A stretch of 64,000 nt of DNA. Origin: Saccostrea echinata. Taxonomy: Eukaryota. Positions 60,249-62,798 of the stretch are shown here, piece after piece (positions within the stretch are counted from its first letter, which is position 1; each line of letters opens with the position of its first letter). The stretch is from positions 2,914,001 to 2,978,000 of the forward strand of contig NW_026889790.1 of NCBI RefSeq assembly GCF_033153115.1, given 5' to 3'. The notes under the pieces were generated by a model. The model did not search any database and was not told the origin of the DNA. It was given only the letters and a program-made list of their open reading frames with translations. The position numbers and the translations under genes are program-made.

Positions 60249-62798
60249 ATGAATGAACATAAGGATACAAAGAAGCCAAAGTTGGATCTAGAATCTGGTG
60301 ATGTTGAAGACACTGAAGACTGTATCGATAGTGGAGACGTTGATTTTAAGTTTAGCAACGAACTCGCTCTGGAAAAGATGTAAAATAAAATCCACCTAAT
60401 ATTTTTAACACTTTAGATATAAACAGCTGTATAAAGAATGATGAATGTATCGTGGATATAAAGAAAATGAAATATGTCTTTACATTTCTGCAGGAGAACA
60501 GATATGAAGGGCTGTCACATATATTTGTTTTAAAAAATGGCTTATTTTTTTTTAGTCGTCAATTACAGGCAAAGTTTTGTAAGGAGAGAAATTGGGACCA
60601 GTTCCACAAACCTAGAAATGTGCTCCTTGCGTTAGTTGGGGAGGTAGGGGAGTTGGCAGAAATATTGTAAGTGATGGTGAAGTAGGTATCTAAGTATATG
60701 TTAATTCTCACAGATTAATAAAAATGGTTTATATAGTTGATCAAAGTTTGGTATTTTGAAATTTGACATCTTGTATATCATGAATATATGAAAGTGAGTT
60801 GGAAGTCCCAACCACATTTTATGCCCCTGCAAACAGAGTTTTGGGGAGATGTAGTTTTTGGCTCTCTGTCTGCAAAAGTTTACCCTTGGCTGTAACTTCT
60901 GAATAGTTGGTGCTAGGGTTTTTATATGCAATGGTTTTGGCTGTGGATATCGGCCTGAGTAACTCAATATCTAGAGCCCCTAATTAGTGATTCAAGGAAT
61001 TGGTTCAAATCCTGCTCTGCGGCATTTTTCTCCCTTTTGGTTAGATTTGGTGCTGTGTCCATGCCCTGGATGTGACGGGTAAAAGATCTGCCAGGGAGGA
61101 GACTGGGTTGGTGTCTTTGGGGGCGAAGACCTATGAGGAAGGAGGATAGTGGCGGTTAGACAGGATAGATCACACATGGCCAGACAGCTCAGTTGGCAGA
61201 GTACCTGACTAGTGATTTAGGGGGCTAGGGTTCAAATCCTGGTGTGGTCTATTGCATTTTTTCTCCTCTCTGCTTACACATATTTCACTTGTATATTCCT
61301 TGTGACAAGACCTTTCTGTGGGTACCAACATTTTTTTACCCCATGACCTTGGAGTTTGATCTAATTATAAAAAACTTTAATCTTGGCCATGATCTGCCAT
61401 ATGGGGGCATCAGTGTTTCACAAACACATTTTGTTAGGGTCCAGCATGAAAATGTGGGAGCCCTATAGGAATTACAATGTCTATCAGTCTGTCTGTCAAT
61501 ACTTTTGTTGTGATGTGGTAACTCAAATAGTTTTCAAGGTATTACTTGCAGGTTTTGTACAGAAGTACTTTACTATAAGAGGAAGACACCTATAGATTTT
61601 GAGGTCATATCACTTTGTCTGTCTCTGTCTTAATGTATATCCATTCCATGATGCTTTTATTGTGACATGAAAACTCACACAGTTTTCAGCGTAACACTTT
61701 CAAATGTTGTACTGTAGTACTTTATTGTAGGAACAAGACACCTATATATATTTGAGTCATATCACCTTGTCAGTATGTCAGAATGTATATCCATCATGAC
61801 AGAATAACTCAAACAGTTTACATTTTAATTATTTCAACCATTATGCAGAAAGATATGACCATATGTCTGTCAATACTTTTATAATGGTTTGGGTCTTGGA
61901 TATCAGCCTGGGTAGCTCAGTTGGTAGAGCACCTGACTAGTGATGCAGGGGTCTGGGGTCTGATTCCCAGTCCAGCCATACATTTTCTCCTTCCTTGTTA
62001 CAGATTTGGAGCCGTTGACCACCTCTTGACTTGCAGGTGAAAGTCCTGCCAGGGCTAATAAGAACTTGGGTTGTGTCTTCAAGGGAGAAGACAATTTAAG
62101 GAGGGAGGAATGTAATGGTCTGGACCATGGATATCGGCCTGGGTAGCTCAGTCGGTAGAGCACCTGACTTACAGATGCAGGGGTCACGGGTTGGATTCCC
62201 GGTCCAGCCATACATTTTCTGCTTTCCTGTAACACTTTAATTGTGATGCTCTCACTAAGACATTTCTCACTGTAATGTTTTCAAATTTTGTACATAAATA
62301 CTTTACAATAAGAGACGGCACATGAATATTTTGTCACTTTCCTTGTACAGCCCTTAGTTGGGCCCTCTCTGACTGCCAGTTTTCAAGTTCATTATGTATT
62401 TTAACCTCAATATCTGGAATAATTGAATATATCAAATCCTTCAACATGTTGCCTCATCAAGTTTGAGAAAAAGAAGTTGGGCTGTAATTAAGTATTTTTA
62501 TTTTGAACCTTTGGATGAATATATGACTCAAAGTATACTTTACAACATTGTTTTAATATTGCATTTTTACCCCAGAAGTTAATGTAATATTTCATAATTA
62601 ATATTCAAAATTATCATTTTCTGTGGACTTCGTAGACATATGAACATTGATCCATAGATGTTAATATGCTTTTCACTTTTACCATTTTGACTTTTGTACT
62701 TCATCTAAATGTTCAGTAATTTTGAAGACAGTGATGTCGATGATAAATTTTGAAATATTTCAGTCAGTGGAAGGGTGAAGTTAGCGTGGGAATTCCAG
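60249..62798 (+). CDS. DCTPP1: dCTP pyrophosphatase 1 (MazG-like), exons 1-3; gene continues beyond the window end
   Basis: Exons 60249-60379, 60556-60666, 62764-62798 give FKFSNELALEKIRQLQAKFCKERNWDQFHKPRNVLLALVGEVGELAEIFQWKGEV. Confidence 0.92.
60927..61278 (+). mobile_element. Degraded miniature LTR element with tRNA-derived LTRs, inserted into a HINE-like element
   Basis: Two diverged tRNA-like LTRs, PBS-like TGGTGCTGTG, purine tract GAGGAAGGAGGA, flanks TATA/CATA. Confidence 0.7.
61880..62234 (+). mobile_element. TRIM-type miniature LTR retrotransposon with tRNA-derived LTRs (Helenus-like)
   Basis: LTR1 61880-62002 and LTR2 62111-62234 (T[G/A]TAA...ACA), each with A-box TAGCTCAGTYGGTAGAGC and a B-box-like motif. 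PBS TGGAGCCGTTGAC at 62007; PPT AAGAGGGAGGAA at 62099-62110; 4-bp TSD CTTT. Confidence 0.88.

What the first reader, a model, noticed from the sequence alone, without database searches (positions are those of the whole stretch)
61880..62234. 355-bp LTR retrotransposon whose LTRs are built around a tRNA-like Pol III promoter
Seen: two ~123-bp direct repeats with TG/TA...CA ends, each holding a tRNA-like sequence (A box, B-box-like motif, Lys-like body). They are separated by a PBS, about 90 bp of internal sequence and a PPT, and flanked by CTTT. Inference: the PBS of the two copies (TGGAGCCGTTGAC, TGGTGCTGTG) approximates the complement of the tRNA-His 3' end. Established, from memory: TRIMs with small-RNA-derived LTRs are known (5S in Cassandra; tRNA in the group named Helenus). 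This is probably a member of a rare, recently recognised class that pipelines would mislabel as tRNA or SINE.
Basis: partly seen in the sequence, partly recalled or inferred. Interest (0 to 1): 0.7.

Follow-up and report, generated by a model that had tools for sequence, protein, structure and literature searches.

The report
Known oyster Helenus mini-retrotransposon, helper traced
This is an old, decayed copy of a known tiny oyster jumping gene (Helenus) whose end repeats hold a tRNA-like sequence that likely serves as its promoter, and hybrid copies elsewhere in the genome point to the larger retrotransposon that likely copies and moves it.

Summary
Confirmed, and already known. Window 61880-62234 is a decayed copy (LTRs 105/123 alike, both B boxes mutated) of a TRIM matching the published family Helenus-2_SaGl (Kojima 2024, PMC10886601, Data S1; young copies about 97% alike, compared by eye). 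It is not a tandem SINE: 18 of 42 multi-LTR copies have exact 4-bp target duplications (null 13 of 1722), and some have identical LTRs.

Not found in the papers searched: (1) 29 of 92 perfect tRNA-His primer sites lie behind Helenus-like LTRs, in place of the family's imperfect site; 18 stop at 18 nt, a few copy 36-59 nt of tRNA. These are fossils of priming. (2) A young Ty3/Gypsy family shares primer, polypurine tract, termini and 4-bp duplication, and two Helenus copies carry its DNA (125 nt of LTR end; about 680 nt of internal region). (3) A mixed Helenus-1/-2 array sits inside one 4-bp duplication.

Pol III transcription is not shown: RNA contigs hold the element, but a satellite control was as deep. 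Earlier scan notes did not report this element.

The parts
61876..61879 (+). left 4-bp target-site duplication CTTT
   Evidence: empty site matches neighbouring repeat unit
61880..62002 (+). 5' LTR of element A (Helenus-2 type), TG decayed to TA
61906..61978 (+). tRNA-like segment, A box 61913-61924, mutated B box 61957-61967
   Evidence: Rfam RF00005 32.3 bits
61983..61986 (+). T4 run after the tRNA-like part; predicted leaky Pol III terminator
   Evidence: present in 55 of 58 LTRs; function inferred
62007..62020 (+). primer-binding site for tRNA-His(GUG), with the family's 1-nt bulge and one substitution
62021..62097 (+). non-coding internal region; predicted hairpins in young copies
   Evidence: role untested
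62098..62110 (+). polypurine tract
   Evidence: near-match to the Gypsy PPT/LTR junction, 23 of 26 nt for a young copy
62111..62234 (+). 3' LTR of element A with tRNA-like segment 62137-62210 and T4 62215-62218
62235..62238 (+). right 4-bp target-site duplication CTTT
60927..61278 (+). element B: older Helenus-1 type copy whose 5' LTR begins with a Helenus-2 type U3; flanks TATA/CATA (3 of 4)

Best explanation
It is a decayed copy of the non-coding oyster mini-retrotransposon Helenus-2, a family likely transcribed by RNA polymerase III from the tRNA-like boxes in its LTR, likely primed by tRNA-His, and likely copied and inserted by the proteins of a young Ty3/Gypsy family in the same genome. 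Steps. (1, inferred) Pol III starts at the tRNA-like segment of the 5' LTR, sometimes reads through the T4 behind it and stops at the same T4 in the 3' LTR, giving an RNA of about 315 nt whose terminal repeat is the tRNA-like part. (2, inferred from hybrid copies) The RNA is packaged with Gypsy RNA and with Helenus-1 RNA. (3, strongly supported by sequence fossils) tRNA-His anneals to the bulged PBS; plus-strand DNA copies the tRNA's last 18 nt and sometimes overwrites the PBS. (4, shown for the product) The DNA is inserted with TG..CA ends and a 4-bp duplication, sometimes as an array. The window copy is old and likely inactive.
For: Family: same layout and about 97% identity of young copy L007 to Helenus-2_SaGl (LTR 119/123; internal 3 substitutions and 1 indel; by eye). 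Integrase product: exact 4-bp TSD in 16 of 29 and 18 of 42 (null 13 of 1722); no 5- or 6-bp duplication among the 29. Recent activity: LTRs 123/123 in L003, L004, L005; the L003 insertion is absent from contigs of 3 of 4 runs laid, skip 359 = 355+4. Primer: 7 identical tRNA-His genes. 8 of 48 exact LTR-PBS junctions carry the tRNA-perfect form instead of the bulge. Of 92 perfect 17-nt sites, 29 follow a Helenus-like LTR and 18 of these match the tRNA for exactly 18 nt, which ends just before A58, the plus-strand stop of retroviral RT (PMC8599865, abstract). Read-through copies cover 36, 38, 38 and 59 nt. Helper: gag plus PR-RT-RNaseH-integrase frames; LTR pairs 1194/1194, 1246/1247, 1187/1190; 4-bp TSD exact in 2 of 3; same primer site; PPT junction 22-23 of 26 nt. 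L129 is a Helenus-2 copy with a CAAG duplication holding the last 125 nt of that Gypsy's LTR (93%), starting 33 nt after a TATAAA. L232 is a Helenus-2 LTR, PBS, Gypsy internal nt 1-682 (87-95%), then a switch back to Helenus at a PPT-like match. L136 is a Helenus-1/-2 four-LTR array within one GAAT duplication, with family switches at the PBS. Pol III: boxes conserved, T4 in 55 of 58 LTRs, and few other sense-strand T4 runs in the 29 copies.
Against: No direct evidence of Pol III use. All runs were contigs, which show no start, end or strand. Run X6 gave a summed depth of 2.5e5-6e5 over the element against 26-130 over flanks, but in X7 and X11 of the same study the 166-bp satellite was as deep or deeper than Helenus, roughly 2-4 fold less so than in the two DNA-like runs (my estimate from the bins). 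The lack of other T4 runs is weak: shuffles give only 0.87 per RNA. The helper link rests on two hybrids, and L232 has no TSD. Related Gypsy families at about 71% identity have similar PPTs and termini (L233, L234), so the helper may be a clade. 24 of 42 multi-LTR copies lack an exact TSD (10 of them differ by one base). The 29 primer-copy sites include three duplicated pairs.
Confidence: 0.78

Rival explanations
1. Tandem tRNA-derived SINEs that mimic an LTR element.
For: The repeat unit is a tRNA-like head with A and B boxes followed by a T-run; lone units exist (4 of 25 loci).
Against: Fixed TG..CA ends, fixed 4-bp duplications around the whole unit, a PBS and PPT between repeats, identical paired LTRs, and no A-tails in the flanks printed. 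One lone unit has a 4-bp TSD, as expected of a solo LTR (L267).
Confidence: 0.01
2. It is Helenus-2, but the helper is another tRNA-His-primed Gypsy family, and the two hybrids arose after insertion by recombination between genomic copies.
For: 47 of 92 perfect primer sites belong to other elements; L233 and L234 have similar PPTs; L232 has no TSD; inter-element recombination is the published explanation for TRIM arrays (PMC6934838, PMC7215508, passages).
Against: Both hybrids involve the same family. The junctions fall at RT landmarks (tRNA-perfect PBS, LTR end, predicted RNA start, PPT-like tract), not in long homology. L129 keeps a 4-bp TSD. No Helenus-LTR site continued into another family's sequence among the 13 loci compared.
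Confidence: 0.15
3. The tRNA-like segment is a passenger or a structural element, and the replicating RNA comes from Pol II (own or read-through).
For: A T4 terminator lies between the promoter and the PBS and would cut Pol III output short; no Pol III data exist (PMC10886601 says so); copies occur in ordinary RNA contigs.
Against: U3 is only about 25 nt; intact A and B boxes are kept in the youngest copies; four Ts is a weak terminator in animals (recalled); Cassandra is reported to work by Pol III (as stated in PMC10886601).
Confidence: 0.12

Closest known systems
Helenus-2_SaGl (Saccostrea glomerata; Kojima 2024, PMC10886601, Data S1, Table S1, Fig S2C; main text parts 1-5 of 6 and supplement parts 1, 5, 10 read, plus searches)
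   Same: 123-bp LTR, 108-109-bp internal part, 4-bp TSD, bulged tRNA-His PBS, same PPT; young copies about 97% alike by eye.
   Different: A few fixed differences, so likely a sister-species subfamily. The paper links animal Helenus to Gypsy by PBS likeness and TSD length only; it reports no hybrids, tRNA-copied PBSs or mixed arrays ('chimer' 0 occurrences).
Helenus-1_SaGl (same paper)
   Same: Family of element B and of loci L033-L060; shares primer, PPT and the A-box block.
   Different: Different U3 and 129-130-bp LTR; element B and L032 are hybrids with a Helenus-2 U3.
Cassandra (5S-derived TRIM of plants; PMC7215508 passages; the 2008 paper was not held)
   Same: Small-RNA promoter in LTRs, terminator in LTR, tandem arrays, template switching proposed as one route.
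   Different: 5S (type 1) promoter, plant hosts, a different primer site; per PMC10886601 its helper is unknown.
Gypsy-39_CGi (named in Fig S2C of PMC10886601)
   Same: tRNA-His PBS like the candidate helper's.
   Different: Only its PBS was seen; its relation to the helper family here was not tested (no Repbase).
biv-TRIM (PMC6934838, passages)
   Same: Bivalve TRIM with solo repeats and arrays.
   Different: No canonical PBS could be identified in biv-TRIM; sequences were not compared.

Membership tests
TRIM | two LTRs with TG..CA ends, under 1 kb, no coding capacity for replication proteins | tested here: met
   355 bp; the only ORF of 90 aa or more over it is a 125-aa antisense stop-to-stop frame
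TRIM | PBS after 5' LTR and PPT before 3' LTR | tested here: met
Helenus (animal) | tRNA-derived sequence with A and B boxes in each LTR | tested here: met
   B boxes decayed in the window copy, intact in young copies
Helenus (animal) | 4-bp target-site duplication | tested here: met
   window CTTT; 18 of 42 vs 13 of 1722 null
Helenus-2_SaGl | over 75-90% identity to the published consensus over full length | tested here: met
   by-eye comparison (about 97% for L007); window copy 324/356 to young copy L002
TRIMp3 | transcription by RNA polymerase III | not testable with these tools
   only contigs available
SINE2 | single tRNA-headed unit with tail and variable-length TSD | tested here: not met
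functional tRNA gene | canonical anticodon arm and consistent isotype | tested here: inconclusive
   ARAGORN gives tRNA-??? for young copies and Cys for the window copy; tRNAscan-SE not available
Ty3/Gypsy (candidate helper) | pol order protease-RT-RNase H-integrase | tested here: met
   Pfam

The most novel reading that the evidence does not exclude
This genome holds the first identifiable animal TRIMp3-helper pair with physical proof of shared particles: a Pol III mini-retrotransposon rides a specific, recently active Ty3/Gypsy using only a shared primer, PPT and LTR ends, and its arrays, including mixed-family ones, are built during reverse transcription by repeated plus-strand jumps at the PBS. 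The copied tRNA fossils also record where modified bases stopped the RT (before A58 and before G37).
Probability: 0.55. Interest if true: 0.62.

Novelty: already known. Interest (0 to 1): 0.42.

Why it matters
The element itself is catalogued, so its discovery adds little; its practical effect is false tRNA calls (ARAGORN and Rfam both call it). The family-level fossils matter more. Kojima 2024 leaves open how such TRIMs depend on their autonomous partner, and offers only primer-site likeness for animals. Here a named candidate partner, evidence that tRNA-His really primes, and arrays that switch family at the PBS make the helper, priming and array-formation questions directly testable in a living, recently active system.

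Tried and rejected
Gypsy-type spacer idea: several tRNA-perfect copies have TAATT instead of GATT between LTR and PBS, which I took as priming on Gypsy RNA; rejected because 4 of 6 TAATT junctions carry the ordinary bulged PBS, so it is a subfamily trait. Hybrid LTRs with a crossover in the tRNA block as a common class: 0 of 74 exact Helenus-2 U3 matches had the Helenus-1 body; L032 and element B are isolated cases and fit ectopic recombination as well. More Helenus copies with Gypsy LTR pieces: none in 29 further loci (30 of 40 scored matches fetched, 168 candidates). Very high expression: not supported after the satellite control; no satellite control was laid for X6. Long shared sequence between Helenus and the Gypsy: none beyond PPT junction, PBS and termini. 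L140 shares the CTTT duplication but its flanks do not match the window. No recognisable host gene near the element was sought beyond an ORF list for 50000-64000. Literature: and finds gave no report of Helenus-Gypsy hybrids; subscription papers and Repbase were not searchable. Copy number is only bounded: 2113 candidates, 207 exact LTR ends.

Full report
Observation. Both LTRs score as tRNA in Rfam above the gathering threshold. The element interrupts a 152-bp local repeat, and the flanks rejoined with one CTTT align without a junction gap to the next unit. The copy is old: LTRs 105/123 alike, TG changed to TA, both B boxes and the PBS mutated. A second, older element lies at 60927-61278.

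Family in the genome. The 923-Mb host genome gave 2113 candidates, of which 40 were scored; 207 places match the LTR's last 31 bases exactly. Of 30 top loci, 29 were parsed (L017 dropped); 16 had exact 4-bp duplications and none had 5 or 6 bp; L005 and L006 are one array. A second sample chosen by the LTR-PBS junction (48 junctions in 47 loci; L113 dropped) gave 42 multi-LTR copies, 18 with exact and 28 with at most one mismatch, against 13 and 126 of 1722 mismatched pairings. A third sample chosen by the LTR end (first 30 of 207; 5 skipped as second LTRs) was mostly paired or arrayed LTRs, with four lone LTRs, one with a 4-bp duplication; 6 of 25 had exact TSDs. The tandem-SINE rival fails. 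Three insertions have identical LTRs, and the L003 insertion is missing from contigs of three of four runs laid, so the family moved recently.

Identity. Kojima 2024 (PMC10886601; main text parts 1-5 of 6, supplement parts 1, 5, 10 and searches) lists Helenus-2_SaGl from Saccostrea glomerata: LTR 123, internal 108, TSD 4, tRNA-His PBS with the same bulge. By eye, young copy L007 differs at 4 of 123 LTR bases and at 3 bases plus one indel internally. Element B and loci L033-L060 match Helenus-1_SaGl. The host is therefore likely a rock oyster close to S. glomerata (inference); the 166-bp satellite in the window fits oysters (recalled; one search is a search listing only).

Primer. The genome has at least seven identical tRNA-His(GUG) genes. 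The family PBS pairs with 9 nt, a bulge, then 5 more. Eight of 48 junctions instead carry the tRNA-perfect form. All 92 perfect 17-nt sites were classified: 29 follow a Helenus-like LTR, 16 follow one Gypsy family's LTR, 47 follow other sequence (the 29 include three duplicated pairs). Eighteen of the 29 match the tRNA for exactly 18 nt, ending before A58, where m1A58 stops retroviral plus-strand synthesis (PMC8599865, abstract). Some read further: 36, 38, 38 and 59 nt; the two 38-nt copies end just before G37, which is methylated in eukaryotic tRNA-His (recalled). Different junctions, and different PBS forms within one array (L092), argue for repeated events and not one old subfamily, although a shared junction in several Helenus-1 copies could be inherited.

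Helper. One tRNA-His-primed family has uninterrupted gag (446 aa) and pol (about 1308 aa) frames with Gypsy domain order in the three copies examined, near-identical LTR pairs, and 4-bp duplications exact in two of three. Its only likeness to Helenus-2 is the PPT/LTR junction (22-23 of 26 nt), the PBS and the GTTACA end. Two Helenus-2 copies contain its DNA. L129 has Helenus LTRs, a CAAG duplication, a tRNA-perfect PBS and the last 125 nt of the Gypsy LTR at 93%, beginning 33 nt after a TATAAA, near where the Gypsy RNA would start (start inferred). L232 has a Helenus LTR, the PBS, Gypsy internal nt 1-682, and a return to Helenus at a 13-nt PPT-like match; it has no duplication. The simplest reading is template switching in a shared particle. 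Against over-reading: there are only two such copies, none further in 29 more loci, and 71%-identical relatives have similar PPTs.

Arrays. L136 alternates Helenus-1 and -2 LTRs and internals inside one GAAT duplication, switching family at the PBS, once with a tRNA-copied PBS. This fits concatemer formation by plus-strand jumps before integration (inferred). Template switching and inter-element recombination are both proposed for TRIM arrays, and chimeric TRIMs are known in sugar beet (PMC7215508, PMC6934838, PMC13570524, passages). Element B and L032 switch inside the tRNA block instead; that form was found in 0 of 74 exact U3 matches and fits ectopic recombination equally.

Transcription. 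A T4 follows the tRNA-like part in 55 of 58 LTRs. It lies upstream of the PBS, so a Pol III genomic RNA needs read-through at the first copy and termination at the second; I commit to this leaky-terminator model as inference. RNA libraries hold the element (20 runs, 4 on record as RNA), and X6 was very deep over it, but the satellite control in X7 and X11 was as deep, so level and polymerase remain open.

Verdict. A real, known element; membership in Helenus-2 about 0.97, full mechanism about 0.78. The helper, priming and array fossils were not found in the searches run; Repbase and subscription papers could not be checked. Earlier scan notes held nothing on this element.

Noticed in passing
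window 60927-61278: Older Helenus-1 type element with a Helenus-2 type U3 in its 5' LTR; flanks TATA/CATA.
   Followed up: yes
L032/L105 (G000:C7:2825685-2826189): Young hybrid LTR (Helenus-2 U3, Helenus-1 body) preceded by an inverted Helenus-2 LTR; other inverted rearrangements in L010, L041, L044, L053.
   Followed up: partly
L120/L133 (G000:C16:28613487, C42:2974703): Helenus-2 LTR followed by a reverse copy of 59 nt of tRNA-His including CCA; a tRNA retro-fragment made by LTR-type reverse transcription, present twice with the same flank.
   Followed up: partly
L003 internal region: Predicted hairpins (GGACTT/AAGTCC, GTCTTCG/CGAAGAC) with similar inverted repeats in Helenus-1; possible packaging signal, covariation not tested.
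   Followed up: no
window 15512-16811, 29988-30772, 44566-46120; 32950-33835: Arrays of a 166-bp satellite and a 146-bp repeat, also found beside many fetched loci; resemble oyster Helitron-borne repeats (recalled).
   Followed up: no
window 62778-63735: 46-bp minisatellite, about 21 copies, with an inverted partial copy at 60784-60810.
   Followed up: no
L232 (minus strand 1673-2031): A 359-bp fold-back (palindromic) element inserted in a Helenus LTR; no match in other fetched loci.
   Followed up: no
L233, L234, L103, L104, L239: Further tRNA-His-primed long LTR elements; L239 has the helper-type internal region behind a different upstream sequence.
   Followed up: partly
L248, L249, L262, L265: Repeated truncated Helenus-2 copies sharing the same break (internal nt 74) and flank, likely carried by a larger duplicated unit.
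   Followed up: no
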